In this document: positions 9,567 through 42,665 of the stretch, piece by piece | How the letters are laid out: every line of letters starts with the position of its first letter | Position numbering within the stretch: position 1 is the stretch's first letter | Virus genome (UHGV): UHGV-1357271 | Length of the DNA: 47,531 nucleotides | Reading direction: 5' to 3' (one strand) | From: a virus | Made by a program: the position numbers and the translations under genes | The notes under the pieces: generated by a model | Seen by the model: the letters and a program-made list of their open reading frames with translations, nothing else | Databases searched by the model: none | What the model was told of the DNA's origin: nothing

Positions 9567-9860
9567 ATGAAAATTAAAATGTTGATTGCGTCTGCACTAT
9601 TGGTTTCTTCTTTCTCTGCTGTCGCAACATCAGAGGTATGCAAGAACATTGGCGACATCGCATTAAACACGGCTGAAGTTCGCGATAACGGTGTTAGCAA
9701 GAATCTTGCCGAAGTAGTGGTGAAAGGCTCAGCAAAAAACAACGAATCAGCTGAAATAATCGGTCTTGCTATCGTAGAAATGGTTTATGCAAGCAAGGAT
9801 ATGACAAAAGAGCAATTGCGTGATGTGGCTGTTACTTTGTGCGAAAAGCAAGGGATGTAA
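9567..9860 (+). CDS. small secreted protein (signal peptide, AVA/TS cleavage site); moron
   Basis: Strong SD GAGGTGA. N-terminal hydrophobic signal MKIKMLIASALLVSSFSAVATSE. Transcribed opposite to the surrounding tail genes from its own promoter. Confidence 0.6.
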   Translation: MKIKMLIASALLVSSFSAVATSEVCKNIGDIALNTAEVRDNGVSKNLAEVVVKGSAKNNESAEIIGLAIVEMVYASKDMTKEQLRDVAVTLCEKQGM

Positions 9861-12069: not shown

Positions 12070-12146
12070 GGACGCGTAGCTTAATTGGTTAAAGCAACCG
12101 ACTCATAATCGGCTGATTGAAGGTTAAAATCCGTCCGTGTCCACCA
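12070..12146 (+). tRNA. tRNA-Met (anticodon CAT) with encoded CCA
   Basis: Manual cloverleaf: acceptor ggacgcg/cgtgtcc, D-stem gctt/aagc, anticodon loop cuCAUaa with U33 and A37, T-arm gaagg-ttaaaat-ccgtc, discriminator A, 3' CCA. Confidence 0.7.
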
Positions 12147-15467: not shown

Positions 15468-15749
15468 ATGAAAGATGAATTCAAAGGTACAAAAGGTCCG
15501 TGGTTTTGGGATGAGGAAGGTCTGGGGAATAAACATCACATAGTATTCGGAAAGGGGTATCCGATTGAGGTGACAAGCAAAGAAAATAAGTCTCTTATTG
15601 CCGCGGCACCAGAGTTACTTGAAGCTCTTCGCCAGCTTCGCGATTATGTTGAGGATGTTTGCGCAGTATCGTCGGATGATTACCATGAGGAACATCCATT
15701 AAATCTGGCAAACAAAGCAATCAAGAAAGCATTAGGAAAGAAACAATGA
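15468..15749 (+). CDS. hypothetical protein, paralog of 27622..27918
   Basis: Shares K-G-x-W, LIAAAPELLEAL and KAIKKALG motifs with the second copy. Confidence 0.5.
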   Translation: MKDEFKGTKGPWFWDEEGLGNKHHIVFGKGYPIEVTSKENKSLIAAAPELLEALRQLRDYVEDVCAVSSDDYHEEHPLNLANKAIKKALGKKQ

Positions 15750-16555
15750 AAACACTCAGCAAAATCTATTCAGACAAAGAAACCCGAAACGGAATCGCTG
15801 TTAACAAAACCTATCTCGTGCCAGTGGAGCAAATCTATCTTGAGCCGGGATACAACATCCGCGAAGCAGATGAGCAACACGTTGAGTATTTCGCGCAGTG
15901 CTGGGAATCAGGTCAGCCATTACCAGCATTAACAATTATTCCTGACGAGAAGGGAATACGAATTCTTGATGGTCAGCATCGCTATCTCGGCGCATTGCGT
16001 GCCATTGAGCGTGGCGCACCAATCGTTCGCATTGAGTGTAAGGATTTCACTGGCGACGAGGCGGACAAAATCGCCTTCATGGTGTCATCAAGTCAGGGTA
16101 AGCAGCTTGACCCGTTTGAGCGAGCAAAGGCTTATACGCGACTGAAAGGCTTTGGCTGGACGAATGAAGAAATCGCCAAAAAGGTAGGTCGCTCAGTATC
16201 TGACGTGCAGATGCACCTGTCATTAGGCGACGTGCCAGCAGAAGTGAAAGCACGCATTAGTGCCGGCCAAATCAGCTATGCAAATGCTGTAGCGGTAACT
16301 CGTGAGCATGGCGATGATGCGGTTAAAGTTATCGATGAAGCTGTAGAAGAAGCGAAGGCGCAAGGCAAGGATAAGGTCACGGCGAAGGTGCTTAAGTCGA
16401 AAAAGATTAAGCCAGTAGACCGCCTGATTGAGTTATTGAAGCCAGCAGACCACGTTATTCTTCCTGCTGGTCATGAACTGAAGGAGGATGAGGAGTTTAT
16501 CCAGATTCCTGTTGCTGACATTCACGAGGTGATGGCAATTCTGGAGAAGATGTGA
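15746..16555 (+). CDS. ParB-like nuclease (ParB/Srx N-terminal) domain protein
   Basis: ILDGQHRYLGALRA matches the ParBc core. Plus a predicted HTH region. Confidence 0.55.
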   Translation: MKTLSKIYSDKETRNGIAVNKTYLVPVEQIYLEPGYNIREADEQHVEYFAQCWESGQPLPALTIIPDEKGIRILDGQHRYLGALRAIERGAPIVRIECKDFTGDEADKIAFMVSSSQGKQLDPFERAKAYTRLKGFGWTNEEIAKKVGRSVSDVQMHLSLGDVPAEVKARISAGQISYANAVAVTREHGDDAVKVIDEAVEEAKAQGKDKVTAKVLKSKKIKPVDRLIELLKPADHVILPAGHELKEDEEFIQIPVADIHEVMAILEKM

Positions 16556-24144: not shown

Positions 24145-24369
24145 ATGCCAAGACCACGACGCGAGCCGATGGACATTATCACCAGCATTGTGGAGAAGAG
24201 GCAGCCGCTGACACTCCGTGATGTTCGCTACTTTGCCCGTTGCTATGTGGCGCTGGCTGATATGCCAAAGGATGAGATGTATGATTTGATTCGGGCCAAT
24301 TTTAATGTTGATGAATACAACCGCGTCACAATGCCGCGACGCGAGATGATTAAGTGGAGAGAGAAATGA
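24145..24369 (+). CDS. hypothetical protein (74 aa)
   Basis: AAAGGAG SD. Confidence 0.45.
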   Translation: MPRPRREPMDIITSIVEKRQPLTLRDVRYFARCYVALADMPKDEMYDLIRANFNVDEYNRVTMPRREMIKWREK

Positions 24370-24950
24370 AAAGGTGGAAATATCGGAAGGGTTGCGAGAA
24401 TGATTTTGATGGTCATAACTCAGCGGTTCTTGTGGTTAAGTCAGGGCATACCGGTGAAGTTTACTGTCTAGGTCGCTATTATGCTGGTCGCATTAGTGAG
24501 ATCGAAGCATTAGGAGATATTGTTATTGCATACCGAGAGCCAATTACCGATGAGCAAGACCTCAACGAATGTATTGGCGCTCCTGAAGCAGATGTGAAGC
24601 GAGGTGGCTTTATTCCCAACACAACATTTGTTGGCGATTTCTTGCCTGAAGGGTATCCGATTTTTGGTCATCCCAATTGCCGATGCAAGGCAGTTAAGGT
24701 TGGAGAACTTCACACAGATGGGAAATGGCATGAGGCGCAACTTGGAAACAAATACCTTCGCGAGATTAAGCCGGGTATATTTGTTGACGTGTACGATGTG
24801 CTCATGGCGTGGAATGTCACCAACCCAGCATTGCAGCACTTAATCAAGAAGGCATTGCAAGCTGGCGAGCGCGGACACAAATCACGCGAACAGGATTTAC
24901 AGGACATCATTGATAGCGCAATTCGCGCAAGAGAACTGGAGAGTCAGTAA
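24366..24950 (+). CDS. hypothetical protein (~194 aa)
   Basis: Coupled ORF. The start MKRWKY has a GGAGAG SD. Confidence 0.45.
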   Translation: MKRWKYRKGCENDFDGHNSAVLVVKSGHTGEVYCLGRYYAGRISEIEALGDIVIAYREPITDEQDLNECIGAPEADVKRGGFIPNTTFVGDFLPEGYPIFGHPNCRCKAVKVGELHTDGKWHEAQLGNKYLREIKPGIFVDVYDVLMAWNVTNPALQHLIKKALQAGERGHKSREQDLQDIIDSAIRARELESQ

Positions 24951-26942: not shown

Positions 26943-27210
26943 ACCAGTAAACCTCTTTTTCAGCTTTGCGTTTTGCTTTGTCGCCAGTCTTCTCGCCCCA
27001 CACGATGAAATGCGCAACAGCACATGAGAAGCAGCGTAGATTATGTTTCTTTAGAAGCGTTGATCTGCGGAAAGCGTCAATGCCAATGTCGGCGGCAAGG
27101 CTTGTAAGTGCATCGAACTGATTCTGCGTTGTCTCGGTGGTGATGTAAGGCGATACATCCACGGCATCAGTAACTCCAAGCGTCTCCATGCCGCGTTGCG
27201 ATAGTTTCAT
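26932..27210 (-). CDS. hypothetical protein (92 aa) upstream of the endolysin
   Basis: First gene after a TGATAGAAT extended -10 promoter. Not obviously hydrophobic. Confidence 0.35.
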   Translation of the reverse strand: MKLSQRGMETLGVTDAVDVSPYITTETTQNQFDALTSLAADIGIDAFRRSTLLKKHNLRCFSCAVAHFIVWGEKTGDKAKRKAEKEVYWYGY

Positions 27211-31271: not shown

Positions 31272-31303
31272 ATGTCACCAATAAAAAATCCCTCACGATG
31301 GAG
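31272..31303 (-). terminator. terminator upstream of the portal
   Basis: On the minus strand: aatccctccatcgtgagggatt followed by ttttatt. Confidence 0.5.
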
Positions 31304-31355
31304 GGATTATAGCATGATGGTAATGTTGATTATGATGCTCGTGGCGCTGGTGTAA

Positions 31356-31550
31356 TTACTCCTTACCAACAACACCAGACCTCATCCACTGATTAAACGC
31401 GTAACACTCAATCCTGTCACCACTTACGACTTGATGGCATCGTGCAACCAATTTAGCTCTATTGCTGCGTAACCCATGATTATTCCATACATCTTCAACA
31501 CGCTTCCTGGCTGCAATAGAATATTCGTGAACCTCTTTTCTTGTCATCAC
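31356..31550 (-). CDS. hypothetical protein (64 aa)
   Basis: Coupled ORF. Confidence 0.3.
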   Translation of the reverse strand: MMTRKEVHEYSIAARKRVEDVWNNHGLRSNRAKLVARCHQVVSGDRIECYAFNQWMRSGVVGKE

Positions 31551-31741
31551 TCCACCTTTTCGAATTTATCGATGACAACATTACGTCCGCGATTCACTAA
31601 TTCCATGACTTTCTCGTTGCCGTGGAATAACTTCCCAGCCGTGAAAGCATCAGGAGCAACAATAACATCACTCACCCTGCCAATAACGGAACCATCTGAT
31701 GCCAACTCAACTTCAGCATGAATAAAATAAACGCTCATCAC
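31547..31741 (-). CDS. hypothetical protein (64 aa)
   Basis: Coupled ORF. Confidence 0.3.
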   Translation of the reverse strand: MMSVYFIHAEVELASDGSVIGRVSDVIVAPDAFTAGKLFHGNEKVMELVNRGRNVVIDKFEKVE

Positions 31742-31750
31742 TCAATCTCC

Positions 31751-32044
31751 TCACCAATTAATTTCATCCCGGCAAATCTTGATCACGCAATCAATCTTGT
31801 TTGCATTAAAGTGGATATCTTTAAATGCAGCCTCTACACTTTGATAAGTACCGTTATTTCTGCGAACACCCAACTTCTTAGCAATAACCATTGATTCACC
31901 AGTCCATGGCACAGCAATCCAATTGCTACCATCAATTAGCACATCACAGCCAAATACCAGTCTATGACGGGATTTACGATGAACATGTAATCCACCGATG
32001 CGCTTTGGTATAATCTGACCTTTCTTAAATAGTTCAATACTCAT
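31751..32044 (-). CDS. hypothetical protein (97 aa)
   Basis: ORF downstream of the leftward promoter. Confidence 0.35.
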   Translation of the reverse strand: MSIELFKKGQIIPKRIGGLHVHRKSRHRLVFGCDVLIDGSNWIAVPWTGESMVIAKKLGVRRNNGTYQSVEAAFKDIHFNANKIDCVIKICRDEINW

Positions 32045-32048
32045 AACA

Positions 32049-32255
32049 TCACCCCCTCAAAAAATCATTCTTGCAGCAGATACCCTTGTACCCGCGCTTC
32101 TCTTGCAGGTTAACGAAGACATCATCCAGAACGCGCAAAAGGAAATCCTCGTCTATGTCATACCGACGACAAATCACCTCATCAGGCACTCCAGCACGCG
32201 CCAGTGAATAAACCTGCTCTTTTTCCTCCTGTGTGAATCCTGCATAGCTGCGCAT
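32049..32255 (-). CDS. hypothetical protein (68 aa)
   Basis: First gene after the leftward promoter TTGACC-N17-TAGTAT. Confidence 0.35.
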   Translation of the reverse strand: MRSYAGFTQEEKEQVYSLARAGVPDEVICRRYDIDEDFLLRVLDDVFVNLQEKRGYKGICCKNDFLRG

Positions 32256-32279
32256 AGTGATATCTCCGATAAGCCTGGT

Positions 32280-32381
32280 GTAGATATACTATGCGCTCGG
32301 TGTAGATTGGTCAAGTGCGGTGACGCAGGTTTATTAACAGTAATAATAAATGTTGACGTAGATATGGTGGTGATGTAGATT
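32280..32381. promoter_or_regulatory. divergent promoters with four direct GTAGAT repeats
   Basis: GTAGAT at 32280, 32302, 32358 and 32375. Leftward promoter TTGACC (reverse complement of 32309-32314), 17-nt spacer, TAGTAT (reverse complement of 32286-32291). Rightward promoter TTGACG at 32353-32358, 17-nt spacer, TAGATT at 32376-32381. Confidence 0.5.
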
Positions 32382-32408
32382 GATGATGAATAACAAACAG
32401 GAGCTAAC

Positions 32409-32873
32409 ATGCTTTCAGTAATTTATATAGCAGCAATATGCGCAGCAAATTTCTCGGTGCATTTCTTTGGACCAGCAATCACTCCAGTAAATGCGTTTCT
32501 GTTTATTGGCCTTGATTTTGTTGTAAGGGATAAGCTGCATGAGAGGATCGGCATCAGGAAAATAATAGTCCTTATATGTATCGCCGGCGTGTTGAGTTAT
32601 TTGATTAACCCAGCCACTGATATGATTGCCATCGCAAGTGTTGCTTCGTTCGCTATCGCAGCTCTAACAGACGCATCTGTATACCAGTTACTAATTAAAA
32701 AACACTGGCTGATAAAGTCCAACTCAAGCAATGTAGCAGCATCAGCTGTTGATTCGGTCATTTTCCCGCTTATTGCCTTCGGTTCTTTTATGCCGCTAGT
32801 TGTCGCTGGTCAATTTGTAGCTAAAGTTTGCGGCGGCGCAGCATGGTCATTAATTTTGAGGAAAGCAAAATGA
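32409..32873 (+). CDS. YhhQ/VUT-family (DUF165) queuosine-precursor transporter-like membrane protein, truncated (154 aa)
   Basis: NVAASAVDSVIFPLIAF and KKHWLIKSNSS align with E. coli YhhQ GNVSDTLAFFFIAF and RRWWLAPTAS. Polytopic. Confidence 0.5.
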   Translation: MLSVIYIAAICAANFSVHFFGPAITPVNAFLFIGLDFVVRDKLHERIGIRKIIVLICIAGVLSYLINPATDMIAIASVASFAIAALTDASVYQLLIKKHWLIKSNSSNVAASAVDSVIFPLIAFGSFMPLVVAGQFVAKVCGGAAWSLILRKAK

Positions 32874-33655
32874 TACATCATTATCACGGTCTGCCGATAT
32901 GGGGTGATGGAGTGATGGAGATTGCAACCAGAGGTAGTGGGGCTTTTGTATCACACGCATGGCCTCAGCAAACCCAAAAAGCACTTGATTCAGCTGGTAG
33001 CGTGGCACTTGATAATGGCGCATTCAGTGCATGGAGAAGTGGGAAGCCAGTGAAGGACTGGACTCCATTTTACCAGTGGCTTATGAGGCACTACCACAAT
33101 GAGAAACTTGAATTTTTCATTATTCCAGACGTAATTGATGGAAATGAGGAAGACAACGACAAACTCATTGACAGTCTGCCATTAATGTTTAAAGAGAAAG
33201 CCGTTCCTACATGGCACCTGCATGAATCAATAGACAGGCTTGTCAGGTTATGCGAAGAGTGGCCCAAGGTGTGCTTTGGGTCATCAGGCGAGTATGCTGT
33301 GATAAGAACCAAGCGCTGGCACGAAAGAATGACGGAAGCGTTCACAGAAATTTACATCAAAAGAAACCTAAAAACAAAAATTCATGGCTTACGAATGCTT
33401 GACGGAAGAGTTCTTGGTAACTACCCACTACACACGGCTGACAGCACAAATCTTGCGTGCAACGTGCCAAAATTTGACAAGAAGTACCCTGAATTAACGC
33501 GAGCAATAATTGAGGCGGAATACAGCAAATCTCTTGATGCAAGGGAGTTGAAACAAACAATTCTGAGAGGTAGGGCAGCTGTATTGAAAGGAGCTGTGGA
33601 GAAGGTTAAGCCGCCATCGGTTGAAGAATGGATTCAAAAACAAGCCCTCAGATGA
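32870..33655 (+). CDS. TGT-fold 7-deazaguanine transglycosylase (DpdA-like) candidate
   Basis: Translationally coupled to the transporter (ATGA). ALDNGAFSAW resembles the TGT catalytic LTDSGGFQ region. 261 aa. Confidence 0.4.
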   Translation: MIHHYHGLPIWGDGVMEIATRGSGAFVSHAWPQQTQKALDSAGSVALDNGAFSAWRSGKPVKDWTPFYQWLMRHYHNEKLEFFIIPDVIDGNEEDNDKLIDSLPLMFKEKAVPTWHLHESIDRLVRLCEEWPKVCFGSSGEYAVIRTKRWHERMTEAFTEIYIKRNLKTKIHGLRMLDGRVLGNYPLHTADSTNLACNVPKFDKKYPELTRAIIEAEYSKSLDARELKQTILRGRAAVLKGAVEKVKPPSVEEWIQKQALR

Positions 33656-33672
33656 GGGCTTTATTTTTATCG
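33636..33672. terminator. bidirectional terminator
   Basis: The sequence aagccctcagatgagggctttatttttat lies between convergent genes. Confidence 0.7.
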
Positions 33673-35091
33673 CCTGCGCCGGATTAGCATCCCGCTTCCG
33701 CGCTGGACGATGTGGTCATTGAGCGCGTAGCGAACCGCATCCCAGTAGTGGTTGTATGCATCAACAATATCAGTCAGCACATTTCCAGTCAGCTTATCAA
33801 CCTTGTAGCTGTACATTGCGGCTTCATTCTGCATTTCCTTGCATCGCTCATGAATGATGATGCTGTCACAGCCGCGCAACCACGTAACGCCATCCTCAAC
33901 GCTGCCGGGCCATTTCGTGCACGGGTGAATATCAAAGCCAGAGCGCTTGATGTGGCTGATGGTTTCAGGGCGCGCGCAGTCGGCATACCATCGTGCGCGC
34001 TTAGCCATAGGAAATGATTGTTCCATCGCGGCCGGCGTATCCGTAATCTCAAGTCCAACTTTCCCGTACTCGCGATTAATATAAATGTTGCGTCGTCCAC
34101 CTGGTAACTCTTCAATATAAACCTCAACCATTGCGGTAGGATCGGTGGAAAACCCGAAGTCCATCCCGAAATATGGGCCATGCCACTCAGGTTTGACCTC
34201 GAAGTTATCAATGCGCCATTTTCCGCCGAAGACCTGCTCATCGCTACGCTTATTAAAGGCTCCCATCCAAATCCAGCGATAACGGTCGTAATCAGTTCGC
34301 TTCATTTGCTCCATGGCAGATGGCAGCGGTGTATCCCAGAACCATGGGTTGTCTGAATAGTTACATTCGATAATCAGAATTTCATCGTTTTCGAATATGC
34401 CATCAACCATCTGTGAGTGATAAGGAGCAATCCAGTTAGTCCACGTCGGGTCTGTCTCCTTGTTGGGGTTGAATGAGCACCACAGTTCTGAATTGGCGGC
34501 GCGGATGGTAGGCACAAGAATATCCCAGCTTGTCTGGCTGACATTCTCCGCTTCCTCTACCCAGCCGACGGTAATACCAGCAAAACCCTTAACGGTTGTC
34601 TGGTTGCGATACAGTCCCTTGAAGCGAAACTTCGCTTTAGTCTTTTTGTGTGTTATCTCGTTGTTGATAACGCGAAACTCTGCCGATTCACCCTTGCGAG
34701 CTATTTCGTCAACAAGTTCCTGATAGCTTGAGTCCTCAATGGATTGCTGAATCTCACGAAAGCAGGCGAAACGGTCAGAGCGAAACCTTGCGCGCTCAGT
34801 TAGTATAGTGATAATCGTTCTCGTCTTCCCTGAACCGCGACCACCGTAGACAAACTTAAAACGCTTCGGGTAAAGCAGGCGTTCCAGCTTTGCCGGGATT
34901 AAGTGGTCGGCATGAGTGGTTGCATTGGTCACATCATCAACGCCAGTGGCGGTCATCCTTAACCGCTTAATGACGTTTTTCTGCATGTCGCAGATGCCAA
35001 AGATGGCGGATTCTGCAACATCTGTCATCGCGTCATCAATCTGCGCTTCCAGCTTTTCGATTGCCAGTGCAGAGAGGCGTTTACGAGCCAT
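33667..35091 (-). CDS. terL: terminase large subunit
   Basis: Walker A YGGRGSGKT. Nuclease-domain acidic residues. 474 aa. Confidence 0.9.
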   Translation of the reverse strand: MARKRLSALAIEKLEAQIDDAMTDVAESAIFGICDMQKNVIKRLRMTATGVDDVTNATTHADHLIPAKLERLLYPKRFKFVYGGRGSGKTRTIITILTERARFRSDRFACFREIQQSIEDSSYQELVDEIARKGESAEFRVINNEITHKKTKAKFRFKGLYRNQTTVKGFAGITVGWVEEAENVSQTSWDILVPTIRAANSELWCSFNPNKETDPTWTNWIAPYHSQMVDGIFENDEILIIECNYSDNPWFWDTPLPSAMEQMKRTDYDRYRWIWMGAFNKRSDEQVFGGKWRIDNFEVKPEWHGPYFGMDFGFSTDPTAMVEVYIEELPGGRRNIYINREYGKVGLEITDTPAAMEQSFPMAKRARWYADCARPETISHIKRSGFDIHPCTKWPGSVEDGVTWLRGCDSIIIHERCKEMQNEAAMYSYKVDKLTGNVLTDIVDAYNHYWDAVRYALNDHIVQRGSGMLIRRRR

Positions 35092-35216
35092 TGATTAACT
35101 CCTGAAGGATAGCTGCCAACTCTTCATCACTCATTGGTTCGTCAAATATGACACCACGTTCGCCGCCACTGCGTGGCAGAATAATCTCATCACATCTTTG
35201 TTTATAATAAACTGAA

Positions 35217-40963: not shown

Positions 40964-40995
40964 CAAAAACCCTCCATATGGAGGGTTTCTTTTAT
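40964..40995. terminator. bidirectional terminator
   Basis: The sequence aaccctccatatggagggtttcttttat. Confidence 0.7.
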
Positions 40996-41945
40996 CTGCA
41001 AACTGACATCTTCTCTATCAACTCGCCAGCGTCATAAATCTTTCTTCTGATTCGCCTCGCCATCCTGATTGTGTCAGCATCATCAGGCAGCATCACCGGA
41101 AGTCCTGCGTTTTCCGCAGCGCAAAGTTCGTCAAATTTATAATTAACTATGCAGCGTAACCGTAACTTCATCTCATCGCTAACAGAGCGCACCACTTCCC
41201 ACATGTTTTCCGGCGACCAGCAGCACCAGACATGAGCGCCAGTGAAGTAATGACATTTCCACGCGTCGGCATAATCAGATACCAGATAAATGAACTTTCC
41301 GTTATCTTCACCGATTGTGCTTATCGCGCCGCGCGTGAGTTTACCGTTTATGGCTGAGTCTTTGTTGTACCCTGCTTTATAAAATGTTCTGAATGCATCA
41401 CCATCCAGACCAATGAATGCCACGTTGCACGGTTTCATTGTGTCAGCGAGCATCATCTCAACCGCAATAAGCTCTCCAGATTTCCCTCTGACGACGTTAA
41501 CATCGCAACCAATACCATTTATCAAAGTCCACTCATTTATCGCGACACGCGTCGTTTTAGTCATGATTGCGGCGACTTCCTGCTCAGTGATGAAGTCATC
41601 GTTGTAATTTATCTTCGGCAGTTCCTTCCTGATTGCCTCCAGTTTTTCGCGTGGATGCATGTTGAGAAAACCGCCAAGTGCCTCCAGTGCTTCAGGGAAG
41701 GTCATTCCAGATAGCTTCATCAGCCAGTTCATGCCACTACCGGAACCGCACTGATTGCAGATTGCACCGCCATCGCCTTTTGTTTCGAAGTTGTCATCAA
41801 AGCGATACCTGTCTTTGCCTGAGCATGACGGGCACGGCTGATGCTTGCCATTGAAAACTCTGCTATCCACATTGACGATAGACATGATGGCAGCCTGCCA
41901 ATTTCCGAGCATTTTTTGCTCAATGTCTTTCCAGTCGTATCTCAT
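40992..41945 (-). CDS. DNA primase (P4-type Zn-ribbon + Toprim)
   Basis: CPSCSGKDRYRFDD...CNQCG zinc ribbon. The start is taken at MRYDWKD, which has an AGGAAG SD. The upstream ATG in the track overlaps the promoter. Confidence 0.65.
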   Translation of the reverse strand: MRYDWKDIEQKMLGNWQAAIMSIVNVDSRVFNGKHQPCPSCSGKDRYRFDDNFETKGDGGAICNQCGSGSGMNWLMKLSGMTFPEALEALGGFLNMHPREKLEAIRKELPKINYNDDFITEQEVAAIMTKTTRVAINEWTLINGIGCDVNVVRGKSGELIAVEMMLADTMKPCNVAFIGLDGDAFRTFYKAGYNKDSAINGKLTRGAISTIGEDNGKFIYLVSDYADAWKCHYFTGAHVWCCWSPENMWEVVRSVSDEMKLRLRCIVNYKFDELCAAENAGLPVMLPDDADTIRMARRIRRKIYDAGELIEKMSVCR

Positions 41946-42017
41946 AAAATCTTCCTGTTGACGTTGATGTAGAATCATTGTAATTTACTCACATGAAACA
42001 ATCAATCGTTACTTGCA
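41946..42017. promoter_or_regulatory. divergent promoters between the primase and HNH/helicase operons
   Basis: Rightward promoter TTGACG at 41958-41963, 17-nt spacer containing GATGTAGAATCAT, then TAATTT. Leftward promoter TTGATT-N17-TACAAT on the minus strand. Confidence 0.45.
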
Positions 42018-42052
42018 ATGAAACAATTAATCGTTACAATAGAGGGTAAGAA

Positions 42053-42202
42053 ATGGCTATCACCGTCAAGAAATGCGAGGTTTGCGGAAATGAGTTCATC
42101 GGAACTGCAAAAGCAAAATGTTGCTCAGGAAAGTGTAGATTGCGCAAGCACAGACAGAAGAAAAACCCAATTCATAACTCAAAAACAGATAATGGAATAT
42201 CT
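42053..42202 (+). CDS. small Zn-ribbon protein (49 aa)
   Basis: AGAGGG SD. Sequence MAITVKKCEVCGNEF...CCSGKC. In a different frame from the downstream HNH gene. Confidence 0.4.
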
Positions 42203-42665
42203 TGAATATAACCCTGAGACTGGTGTCTTTACAGCTGCAAAAACACATGGAACACTCTGGCGTAAAGGCAAGGTTGTTGGTCATAAGAATAAGGCAGGTT
42301 ACATTACCATCACGCTACTAGGAAAACTAAGGAAAGCTCATAGGCTGGCATGGATTTATGTTTATGGAGGAGATATTGATGGGTATGAAATAGACCATAT
42401 AAATGGTGATAAATCAGACAATAGAATTTGCAACCTTAGGATTTCTAGTCACCAGCAAAACATGTTCAACATGAAAAAGAAATCAACAAACAAATCTGGT
42501 GTAAAAGGTGTGCATTTTGATAAAAGATGCAACAAATGGAGAGCGCAGACATCAATAAACAAGAAGAGGGTTCATCTTGGTTTGTTTGACACCATAGAAT
42601 CAGCAGAAAAGGCGATTCGTGAATTCATGGTTGCTAACCATAAAGAGTTTATTAATTTAGGGTAA
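42192..42665 (+). CDS. HNH homing endonuclease with AP2 DNA-binding domain
   Basis: YEIDHINGDKSDNRICNLRISSHQQN (HNH motif). SGVKGVHFDKRCNKWRAQ (AP2 domain). Start taken at MEYLEYNPETG. Confidence 0.6.
   Translation: MEYLEYNPETGVFTAAKTHGTLWRKGKVVGHKNKAGYITITLLGKLRKAHRLAWIYVYGGDIDGYEIDHINGDKSDNRICNLRISSHQQNMFNMKKKSTNKSGVKGVHFDKRCNKWRAQTSINKKRVHLGLFDTIESAEKAIREFMVANHKEFINLG

What the first reader, a model, noticed from the sequence alone, without database searches (positions are those of the whole stretch)
32409..33655. Transporter plus TGT-fold enzyme operon predicting 7-deazaguanine (queuosine-precursor) DNA modification without biosynthesis genes
A truncated YhhQ/VUT(DUF165)-like polytopic protein is translationally coupled by an ATGA overlap to a 261-aa protein. 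The 261-aa protein's ALDNGAFSAW segment resembles the catalytic LTDSGGFQ region of tRNA-guanine transglycosylases and DpdA. No queC, queD, queE or folE genes are present in the window, so the phage would have to scavenge host preQ0/preQ1. The pair is inserted between the portal-side promoter and terL, bracketed by a GTAGAT promoter cluster and a bidirectional terminator, which is typical of an accessory module. It would render the genome resistant to many restriction enzymes.
Basis: partly seen in the sequence, partly recalled or inferred. Interest (0 to 1): 0.8.

Follow-up and report, generated by a model that had tools for sequence, protein, structure and literature searches.

The report
Phage deazaguanine importer plus DNA-transglycosylase cassette
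A two-gene accessory cassette in this 47.5-kb enterobacterial tailed phage pairs a small YhhQ-like membrane transporter with a compact DpdA-type guanine-swapping enzyme and has no precursor-synthesis genes, an arrangement already catalogued in phages whose effect on DNA has so far been measured as only trace-level.

Summary
Window 32409-32873 encodes a 154-aa VUT/COG1738 (YhhQ-family) protein. It overlaps by ATGA a 261-aa protein (32870-33655), which is a compact member of the tRNA-guanine transglycosylase (TGT)/DpdA superfamily.

Evidence for the enzyme:
- PHROG 887, E 2.8e-76.
- Profile match to the validated CAjan DpdA: 91% probability, E 1e-6.
- The acid/base motif (LDNGAF) and the nucleophile motif (ADSTN) are conserved.

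No folE, queD, queE or queC was found in the window.

The pair is a swappable cargo of about 1.26 kb sitting between a conserved promoter region and a shared hairpin terminator. Phage swi2 carries two small ORFs in the same slot.

The VUT-(A/G)TGA-DpdA junction recurs in 16/16 same-orientation loci from several phage lineages.

The transporter is not truncated: about 154 aa is the conserved length, and CAjan's YhhQ is 159 aa.

This matches Hutinet et al. 2019's "DpdA-only" phage group, some of which carry YhhQ. Published data argue against broad restriction resistance. Phage 7-11 (40% identical enzyme) carries only 0.02% modified G. CAjan without its own queC drops 12-fold and becomes cuttable.

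Verdict: a new member of a known kind, with modest interest.

The parts
32277..32381 (.). Divergent intergenic control region with four GTAGAT-containing repeats. It holds a +strand sigma-70-like site (TTGACG 32353-32358, 17-nt spacer, TAGATT 32376-32381) and a -strand site (TTGACC-17-TAGTAT, 32314-32286).
   Evidence: The region is conserved with phage swi2 up to 32379. Promoter activity is inferred, not shown.
32380..33641 (+). Swappable cargo segment of 1262 bp. It is replaced in phage swi2 by 392 bp holding two small ORFs.
   Evidence: blastn breakpoints lie at 32379 and 33642; swi2 annotation. GC is 43.7% and GC3 is 38-43%, against terL/portal GC of 50-53% and GC3 of 56-63%.
32399..32403 (+). 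Shine-Dalgarno AGGAG, 5 nt upstream of the transporter start codon.
   Evidence: Read.
32409..32873 (+). 154-aa short-form VUT/COG1738 (YhhQ-family) membrane protein, the putative 7-deazaguanine-base importer.
   Evidence: Pfam PF02592 2e-9, above the cut-off. PHROG 4899 2.5e-42. CAjan YhhQ tblastn 5.5e-8. hhalign to E. coli YhhQ E 4.6e-4. Six-helix model, pLDDT 80.6. 445 homologues of about 154 aa.
32858..32873 (+). Coupling junction: GAGGA (32858-32862), then a 7-nt spacer, then the ATGA overlap (ATG 32870-32872, TGA 32871-32873).
   Evidence: The (A/G)TGA junction is conserved in 16/16 loci.
32870..33655 (+). 261-aa compact DpdA-type (TGT-superfamily) transglycosylase. Invariant residues: D48 with F52 (LDNGAF), D87, G137-G140, H172 and D191 (ADSTN).
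33642..33661 (.). Hairpin AAGCCCTCAGATGAGGGCTT with T-runs on both strands. It is a terminator shared by the cassette (+) and the convergent terL gene (-, 33667-35091).
   Evidence: Homology with swi2 resumes exactly at 33642.

Best explanation
The two genes form a horizontally mobile, translationally coupled 'import-and-insert' cassette. The 154-aa VUT/COG1738 protein sits in the inner membrane and imports a free 7-deazaguanine base. preQ0 is the most likely substrate; preQ1 or queuine are possible. The 261-aa DpdA-type enzyme then exchanges guanine in double-stranded phage DNA for that base after replication. The chemistry is the TGT double-displacement mechanism: D191 acts as nucleophile and forms a covalent deoxyribosyl intermediate, D48 acts as general acid/base, F52 stacks on the base, and D87 together with the G137-G140 loop reads the base. 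The phage makes no preQ0, so the supply is the host's small FolE/QueD/QueE/QueC pool plus whatever is imported. The expected outcome is sparse, probably motif-specific modification. By analogy that means roughly 10^-5 to a few 10^-3 per nucleotide, giving at best partial or system-specific protection rather than general restriction resistance.

Shown: family and fold assignments, conserved catalytic motifs, operon coupling, cassette mobility, and absence of synthesis genes.

Inferred: the substrate base, DNA as the target, and the level and benefit of modification.
For: - Enzyme identity. PHROG 887 gives 2.8e-76. tblastn with CAjan DpdA gives 6e-5. hhalign gives 90-91% probability at E 1.1-1.5e-6. 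It aligns LDNGAFSAW with LDSGAFSA, KIHGLRML with KVHGFGIT, and TADSTNL with SCDSSSW.
- Conservation. D48, F52, D87, H172 and D191 are invariant or nearly so in 45 homologues, and each lies at the C-terminal end of a barrel strand in the model.
- Roles of the three Asp and the Phe in DpdA/TGT are taken from PMC10164549.
- Transporter. Pfam Vut_1 above the cut-off; homology to CAjan YhhQ and to E. coli YhhQ. YhhQ is required for preQ0 and preQ1 salvage (PMC5372724).
- Functional coupling. 14/14 IMG/VR loci with the short VUT have an adjacent DpdA-like gene, and the (A/G)TGA junction is conserved in 16/16 loci. These span several lineages: a Swiduovirus-like phage, Rogunavirinae, PEAT2, Flyfo and an Acinetobacter phage.
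- DNA context elsewhere. 47/80 closest loci have a Dam-like DNA methyltransferase about 330 bp upstream. The gene sits in early replication/recombination operons in SEN1 and HK106.
- Precedent. 9g DpdA alone inserts host preQ0 into plasmid DNA. CAjan delta-queC still carries 3.5 dPreQ0 per 10^3 nt.
Against: - No biochemical or LC-MS data exist for this phage.
- The only tested member of this subfamily, phage 7-11, had just 50 dADG per 10^6 nt and no dPreQ0. Singleton-DpdA phage Orion had none. phiSM DpdA1 was inactive in E. coli.
- Deleting yhhQ in CAjan had no effect on modification.
- The family matches neither Pfam TGT nor the PADLOC DpdA model.
- It lacks the canonical CxCxxC zinc motif.
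- Generic TIM barrels score nearly as well in fold searches.
- The equivalence of D87 to the base-reading Asp is ambiguous, because hhalign aligns D90 instead.
Confidence: 0.6

Rival explanations
1. The enzyme acts on RNA rather than DNA. In this reading it is a phage TGT that, fed by the imported base, inserts a queuosine precursor into host or phage tRNA to tune translation during infection.
Against: - The protein is a bare 261-aa barrel. It has no CxCxxC zinc motif and, by its length and modelled fold, no room for the C-terminal tRNA-binding domains of ArcTGT; that comparison rests on general knowledge.
- No sequence match to E. coli TGT or to Pfam TGT was found.
- The only detectable sequence relative with known function, CAjan DpdA, acts on DNA (PMC7544227).
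- E. coli already has tgt and yhhQ.
- The phage's single tRNA is tRNA-Met (CAT), which is not a GUN-anticodon substrate.
Confidence: 0.13
2. The enzyme is a counter-defence or decoy acting on a non-nucleic-acid substrate. For example, it could process or divert 7-deazaguanine bases or protein-linked deazaguanine (Cap10-like chemistry) to blunt type IV CBASS or QatABCD-type defences.
Confidence: 0.07
3. The cassette is an active enzyme pair with negligible or no DNA-protective role. Any modification stays at trace level, and the cassette persists as selfish cargo or has an unrelated benefit, for example a membrane-protein effect such as superinfection exclusion.
For: Trace modification in 7-11 and none in Orion. 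Host-derived preQ0 is insufficient for restriction protection in CAjan delta-queC, and yhhQ is dispensable there. The cassette is rare in this lineage: only 1 of 175 related phage records covers at least 80% of the query region that contains it. The slot holds unrelated small ORFs in swi2.
Against: The catalytic residues are strictly conserved in the 45-sequence alignment, and the family comprises 964 clusters at 50% identity. The transporter-enzyme coupling is conserved in several phage lineages. Both points argue for selection on the joint biochemical activity.
Confidence: 0.15

Closest known systems
Singleton DpdA of gamma-proteobacterial phages: Hutinet et al. 2019 'group 3', e.g. Salmonella phage 7-11 gp032, plus HK106, SfI, SEN1, SPN3UB, BTP1 and PEAT2
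   Same: Clear homologues: 7-11 at 39.7% identity over 96% of the query (E 2e-52), SEN1 at 63%, HK106 at 45% and PEAT2 at 41%. Each is a short enzyme of about 235-275 aa in a phage with no preQ0 synthesis genes.
   Different: Here the enzyme is translationally coupled to a short VUT transporter and sits in a promoter-terminator slot next to terL in what appears to be a virulent siphophage. Most relatives lack the transporter: only 2 of the 80 closest IMG/VR loci have it. Most also lie in early operons of temperate phages.
DpdA + YhhQ gene pairs without synthesis genes, listed in Hutinet 2019 Supplementary Data 1: Clostridium phage CDKM15, Sinorhizobium phage phiLM21 and halophage eHP-6
   Same: The architecture is the same: adjacent DpdA and YhhQ (consecutive accessions) with no FolE/QueDEC.
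   Different: The hosts and lineages differ. Sequence relatedness to the window's pair was not tested here. PEAT2's short VUT was not scored as YhhQ in that table although RefSeq annotates it.
Seuratvirus CAjan DpdA1 and its 159-aa YhhQ (Queuovirinae 7-deazaguanine cluster)
   Same: Both proteins are detectable homologues. DpdA: hhalign 91%, E 1.1e-6, with matching catalytic motifs. YhhQ: tblastn 5.5e-8 at 32% identity, and it is likewise a short form.
   Different: CAjan also encodes FolE, QueD, QueE and QueC and replaces about a quarter to a third of its G with dPreQ0. Its DpdA is 306 aa and only about 22% identical. Its two genes are not adjacent or coupled.
Bacterial DpdA of the Dpd restriction-modification system (Salmonella Montevideo, PDB 7UI4)
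   Different: It is 413 aa with DpdA-specific insertions and a structural zinc site, and it needs the DpdB ATPase. The window protein has no CxCxxC motif, no adjacent DpdB-like gene and no hit to the PADLOC DpdA model.
Cap10, the TGT-like enzyme of type IV CBASS (PDB 9NTN)
   Different: Cap10 binds a deazaguanine-modified protein N-terminus and works with Cap9 and a CD-NTase. None of those partners is present here. Sequence identity is about 10%.
E. coli YhhQ (COG1738/QPTR queuosine-precursor transporter, 221 aa)
   Same: Same Pfam family. Three Asp-containing motifs align: GLDFVVRD with ATDLTVR, TDASVYQ with LDVHVFN, and VDSVIFPLIAF with SDTLAFFFIAF. Both have six helices.
   Different: The window protein is about 70 residues shorter, lacking YhhQ's loop insertions. 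It scores far below the NCBIfam equivalog cut-offs (21.6 against 50.95 bits; 20.8 against 252). hhalign probability is only 33%. Its substrate is unknown.

Membership tests
TGT/DpdA superfamily (guanine transglycosylases) | TGT-type (beta/alpha)8 barrel fold | tested here: met
TGT/DpdA superfamily (guanine transglycosylases) | General acid/base Asp followed four residues later by the base-stacking Phe (bacterial DpdA D95/F99; 'DSGGF' in TGT) | tested here: met
   D48 is invariant and F52 is conserved in at least 90% of 45 homologues. LDNGAFSAW aligns with CAjan LDSGAFSA. The residue roles come from PMC10164549.
TGT/DpdA superfamily (guanine transglycosylases) | Base-recognising Asp after barrel strand 4 (bacterial DpdA D130) | tested here: inconclusive
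   An invariant D87 directly follows strand 80-84. However, hhalign pairs the CAjan invariant Asp with position 90, which is D or E. No model coordinates were available for superposition.
TGT/DpdA superfamily (guanine transglycosylases) | Nucleophile Asp (bacterial DpdA D256; TGT D280) | tested here: met
   D191 in ADSTN is invariant and aligns with the invariant Asp of the CAjan family motif CDSSS.
TGT/DpdA superfamily (guanine transglycosylases) | Structural zinc site (CxCxxC...H) | tested here: not met
   No CxCxxC occurs in any of the 45 members, nor in the 26 CAjan-family DpdA1 sequences. The motif is therefore not a requirement for phage DpdA.
TGT/DpdA superfamily (guanine transglycosylases) | Match to curated sequence models (Pfam PF01702 TGT; PADLOC DpdA) | tested here: not met
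   0 of 45 members hit Pfam TGT. There is no PADLOC hit and no hhalign match to E. coli TGT.
Phage DpdA (DNA 7-deazaguanine transglycosylase) | Sequence homology to an experimentally validated phage DpdA | tested here: met
   CAjan DpdA: tblastn 6e-5; hhalign 90-91% at E about 1e-6. CAjan delta-dpdA loses all dPreQ0.
Phage DpdA (DNA 7-deazaguanine transglycosylase) | Exchange of guanine in DNA for preQ0 or a related base | not testable with these tools
   This needs LC-MS/MS of virion or plasmid DNA.
Hutinet 2019 'DpdA-only' phage group (gamma-proteobacterial singleton cluster) | DpdA homologue present while folE, queD, queE, queC and the amidotransferases are absent | tested here: met
   Searches find no synthesis genes. 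Homology to the listed members 7-11, SEN1, HK106, SPN3UB, BTP1 and PEAT2 is shown.
Queuovirinae-type complete 7-deazaguanine cluster | FolE-QueD-QueE-QueC (or Gat-QueC) encoded alongside DpdA | tested here: not met
   tblastn with all four CAjan enzymes finds nothing with E below 0.4. There are no Pfam hits in 30 ORFs.
VUT/COG1738 (YhhQ, queuosine-precursor transporter) | Pfam PF02592 above the gathering score | tested here: met
   38.4 bits against 27.2, E 2e-9, although the match covers only residues 70-141. All 120 listed homologues carry PF02592.
VUT/COG1738 (YhhQ, queuosine-precursor transporter) | NCBIfam equivalog thresholds (TIGR00697, PRK11212) | tested here: not met
   21.6 against 50.95 bits, and 20.8 against 252 bits.
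VUT/COG1738 (YhhQ, queuosine-precursor transporter) | Six transmembrane helices | tested here: met
   The AlphaFold model has helices 2-20, 22-47, 49-66, 68-95, 103-124 and 129-149, with pLDDT 80.6. The hydropathy profile agrees. The nearest solved folds are six-helix ECF S-components (RibU, TM about 0.5, E 0.3; weak).
VUT/COG1738 (YhhQ, queuosine-precursor transporter) | Transport of preQ0 or preQ1 | not testable with these tools
   This needs complementation of E. coli delta-queD delta-yhhQ, the assay of PMC5372724.

The most novel reading that the evidence does not exclude
The short-VUT/mini-DpdA pair is a self-contained 'scavenge-and-mark' device. It loads an environmentally supplied deazapurine, such as gut-derived preQ1 or queuine, or another base not yet seen in coliphage DNA, onto a few specific sites. 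That sparse mark would defeat one particular defence rather than restriction enzymes in general. One example would be mimicking the dPreQ0/dADG self-mark of the bacterial Dpd system.
Probability: 0.12. Interest if true: 0.7.

Novelty: new member of a known kind. Interest (0 to 1): 0.32.

Why it matters
Phages that carry a DpdA but no way to make its substrate are the largest group in the 2019 survey and the least understood. The authors wrote that the modification status of these phages, 'if any, is difficult to predict'.

This cassette is a clean, minimal example for settling that. It has two coupled genes with its own promoter and terminator. A natural cassette-less relative (swi2) exists. 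The host is E. coli, where queC, queD, queF and yhhQ mutants are available.

Showing what base goes in, where, and at what level would tell whether singleton DpdAs are real anti-defence tools. About 3% of complete E. coli genomes carry a homologue. It would also show whether precursor import can substitute for synthesis. As it stands, the finding adds a member and some architecture detail, not a new principle.

Tried and rejected
- Direct sequence links to canonical TGT fail. phmmer and a profile search against PDB sequences gave only chance hits. hhalign against E. coli TGT gave 0.2% probability. Pfam TGT matched 0 of 45 members, and PADLOC gave no hit. The family assignment therefore rests on phage DpdA1 homology plus fold.
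- The 'truncated transporter' description is rejected. The length is conserved in 445 homologues and in CAjan, and six helices are modelled.
- A preQ1 riboswitch upstream of the transporter is absent. Rfam found none at gathering threshold, and only a chance hit in a permissive scan of 32150-32500.
- Hidden preQ0 genes were not found.
- A VUT-DpdA fusion protein would have been Rosetta-stone evidence. The long hit P0361 proved instead to be a Dam-methyltransferase N-terminus joined to a DpdA-like C-terminus.
- The afdb50 fold library was unavailable, so the transporter model could be compared only with PDB, where the matches are weak.
- CAjan gp40 lies inside CAjan's deazaguanine cluster and shares a C-terminal domain with window ORF 24354-24950. 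That domain occurs in many unrelated PHROGs of unknown function, so no link to the cassette could be made.
Full report
**1. What is in the sequence**

The window holds two same-strand ORFs at the reported coordinates. The first runs 32409..32873 (154 aa, ATG). The second ends at 33655. ATG 32870 overlaps the first gene's TGA stop (32871-32873), so the sequence reads ATGA.

AGGAG lies 5 nt before the first start, and GAGGA lies 7 nt before the second. In-frame upstream starts also exist: ATG 32843 gives 270 aa and TTG 32828 gives 275 aa. Some gene callers use the 270-aa form (P0001).

The 261-aa start is favoured by conservation. In 16 related loci the same (A/G)TGA junction is found, preceded by a purine-rich stretch, with 13 ATGA and 3 GTGA.

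Upstream, GGTGTAGAT occurs at 32277 and 32299. Near-copies lie at 32356-32364 (GACGTAGAT) and 32372 (GATGTAGAT). Window-wide, the motif with at most one mismatch occurs 21 times against 7.0 +/- 2.6 expected.

A sigma-70-like TTGACG-17-TAGATT site lies at 32353-32381. A hairpin with T-runs on both strands sits at 33642-33661, between the cassette and the convergent terL gene (33667-35091, minus strand).

**2. The 261-aa protein**

Curated sequence libraries give no hit in Pfam or NCBIfam. PHROG 887, 'queuine tRNA-ribosyltransferase', matches at 2.8e-76.

The protein has 3685 homologues in the 90%-clustered collection. At 50% clustering it has 964 representatives at E <= 1e-3. These are typically 220-270 aa, with a conserved core over positions 3-200.

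An alignment of 45 homologues shows these invariant or nearly invariant residues: D48 and F52 (LDNGAF), P86-D87, G137-S138-S139-G140, H172-R180 (HGLRMLDGR) and D191-N194 (ADSTN).

The AlphaFold model is confident (pLDDT 92.2, pTM 0.89). It is a beta/alpha barrel, and each of those residues sits at the C-terminal end of a strand.

| Search | Hit | Score |
|---|---|---|
| Foldseek vs PDB | Cap10 (9NTN) | E 7e-5, TM 0.59 |
| Foldseek vs PDB | ArcTGT, DpdA 7UI4 | within the top 14 |

The decisive link is sequence homology to the genetically validated CAjan DpdA. tblastn gives E 6e-5. hhalign gives 90% against the single sequence and 91% (E 1.1e-6, 164 columns) against a 26-member CAjan-family profile. 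The aligned motifs are:
- LDNGAFSAW with LDSGAFSA.
- FGSSG with IGGMVG.
- KIHGLRML with KVHGFGIT.
- TADSTNL with SCDSSSW.

In bacterial DpdA the corresponding Asp95 (acid/base), Phe99, Asp130 (base reading) and Asp256 (nucleophile) are invariant across the DpdA and TGT families. Mutation of the acid/base and nucleophile Asp residues abolishes guanine exchange (PMC10164549).

Negative results:
- No canonical CxCxxC zinc motif is present, and it is also absent from the CAjan family.
- There is no hhalign match to E. coli TGT.
- There is no PADLOC DpdA hit.
- None of the 45 members hits Pfam TGT.
- hhalign pairs the CAjan base-reading Asp with position 90 rather than with D87, so that one equivalence is unsettled.

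**3. The 154-aa protein**

Pfam Vut_1 (PF02592, the YhhQ family) matches above its gathering score: 38.4 against 27.2 bits, over residues 70-141. The NCBIfam YhhQ equivalogs match only weakly and far below cut-off.

CAjan's 'putative preQ0 transporter' is 159 aa and matches at 5.5e-8. A profile comparison with E. coli YhhQ gives E 4.6e-4 (probability 33%) and aligns three Asp-containing motifs.

All 120 listed homologues are 154-173 aa long and carry PF02592. The model has six helices (pLDDT 80.6). The nearest solved folds are six-helix ECF S-components such as RibU, and these matches are weak.

So this is a conserved short form, not a truncation. E. coli YhhQ is required for salvage of preQ0 and preQ1 at 10 nM (PMC5372724). 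Family members in other bacteria have shifted to queuine (PMC11570991 abstract).

**4. No synthesis genes**

tblastn with CAjan FolE, QueD, QueC and QueE finds nothing in the window. Pfam scans of 30 further ORFs give structural, replication and recombination families only.

Rfam finds one tRNA and no preQ1 riboswitch. The one tRNA is tRNA-Met (CAT).

**5. It is a mobile cassette**

The phage is related to Swiduovirus swi2, DS8 and Jersey-like Salmonella phages. Only one of 175 matching phage records covers at least 80% of the queried region (31300-35100), which contains the cassette. That record is ECO111 5-P, whose DpdA-like protein is 95% identical.

Against swi2, homology runs up to 32379 and resumes at 33642. 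In between, swi2 has 392 bp with two small ORFs. The cargo is compositionally distinct: GC 43.7% and GC3 38-43%, against 50-53% and 56-63% for terL and portal.

Flyfo siphovirus Tbat1_6 has the same pair next to terL.

**6. The pairing is conserved**

- In the phage collection, 16 records have the short VUT. In at least nine of them the coordinates place the DpdA-like gene directly beside it.
- In IMG/VR, 14/14 short-VUT loci have an adjacent DpdA-like gene, 13 downstream and 1 upstream. None has FolE, QueD, QueE or QueC within 6 kb.
- The pairing spans Rogunavirinae (Phleasolo), PEAT2, an Acinetobacter phage and others.
- Conversely, of the 80 closest DpdA-like loci only 2 have the VUT and none has synthesis genes. 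Forty-seven have a Dam-like DNA methyltransferase about 330 bp upstream. One database protein is a Dam::DpdA chimera.
- In SEN1 the gene sits in the early operon before the replication gene. In HK106 it sits in the operon between erf/abc2 and xis-int.
- About 3% of complete E. coli genomes (177 of 5426) carry a DNA-detectable homologue of the enzyme core. None carries the whole cassette.

**7. What is already known**

Hutinet et al. 2019 (PMC6884629) defined a group of 76 phages that 'encode DpdA but no G+ or preQ0 biosynthesis protein homologs'. [quoted passage not shown] Their Supplementary Data 1 lists HK106, SfI, PEAT2, 7-11, SE131, SEN1, SPN3UB and BTP1 as DpdA-only. All of these are homologues of the window protein. 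It also lists adjacent DpdA+YhhQ pairs in CDKM15, phiLM21 and eHP-6.

Measured outcomes:
- Phage 7-11 has 50 dADG per 10^6 nt (about 0.02% of G) and no dPreQ0. Phage Orion has none.
- 9g DpdA alone put host preQ0 into plasmid DNA at 0.03-0.3% of G.
- In CAjan, deleting queC left 3.5 dPreQ0 per 10^3 nt. [quoted passage not shown] Deleting yhhQ changed nothing (PMC7544227).

**8. Interpretation**

The most likely mechanism (confidence about 0.6) is import of a 7-deazaguanine base by the VUT protein, followed by post-replicative exchange for guanine in phage DNA by the DpdA-type enzyme. Levels would be limited by the scavenged supply.

'Truncated' and 'resistant to many restriction enzymes' are not.

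Rivals are a tRNA target (0.13), a Cap10-like or counter-defence role (0.07), and a real enzyme pair with negligible protective effect or another benefit (0.15).

**9. Novelty and score**

This is a new member of a known kind. The added value is descriptive:
- A conserved, translationally coupled short-VUT/mini-DpdA cassette.
- Its exact cargo boundaries in a promoter-terminator slot.
- Its spread across phage lineages.
- The Dam association of the transporter-less relatives.

Interest is 0.32. The system is not surprising to a specialist, but it is a tidy one for resolving what singleton DpdAs do.

Noticed in passing
window 24354-24950 (+), especially 24774-24941: A 198-aa ORF with no Pfam hit shares its last 56 or so residues at 75% identity with the C-terminus of CAjan gp40, an unknown-function gene inside CAjan's 7-deazaguanine cluster. 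The same small domain lies 0.65 kb downstream of the DpdA-like gene in Phleasolo (L006 4459-4683) and 3.6 kb upstream of the VUT gene in L013 and L014. It belongs to several PHROGs of unknown function.
   Followed up: partly
window-wide, e.g. 9522, 11375, 27283(-), 32277, 32299, 32372, 37819(-), 45002: The GGTGTAGAT-like motif is about three-fold enriched: 21 hits against 7.0 +/- 2.6 expected. By coordinates, 9522 lies just upstream of a + strand ORF starting at 9567 and 27283(-) just upstream of a - strand ORF starting at 27210. It may be a phage-specific promoter or operator element. Its function was not tested.
   Followed up: partly
IMG/VR loci L028-L104 (e.g. L028 7129-7671 and 8001-8771); protein P0361: In 47 of the 80 closest DpdA-like loci, a Dam-like DNA adenine methyltransferase gene lies about 330 bp upstream on the same strand. 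One database protein (P0361, 421 aa) is a Dam N-terminus fused to a DpdA-like C-terminus.
   Followed up: partly
loci L009-L019 compared with window 32409-33655: Across loci the VUT protein is much more conserved (65-73% identity) than its DpdA-like partner (41-45% in most). Flyfo shows the reverse pattern: VUT 71%, DpdA 82%. This suggests recombination between the two genes or very unequal rates of change.
   Followed up: no
window 12070-12146 (+): A single tRNA-Met (anticodon CAT) gene is the only Rfam or ARAGORN hit in the window.
   Followed up: yes
window 42018-42665 (+): A 215-aa ORF with HNH_3 plus AP2 domains, likely a homing endonuclease, sits between a primase-like gene (40992-41978, minus strand) and a 640-aa ORF.
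   Followed up: no
window 15746-16555 (+): A ParB-like protein (HTH_ParB and KorB domains; PHROG 1033) is encoded here. Bacterial DpdA needs a partner ATPase, DpdB. No relation between this gene and the cassette was tested.
   Followed up: no
window 32843 and 32828: Alternative in-frame starts would give 270-aa or 275-aa versions of the DpdA-like protein that overlap the VUT gene by 31 or 46 nt. Public gene calls are split between the 261-aa form and forms of about 270-276 aa.
   Followed up: partly
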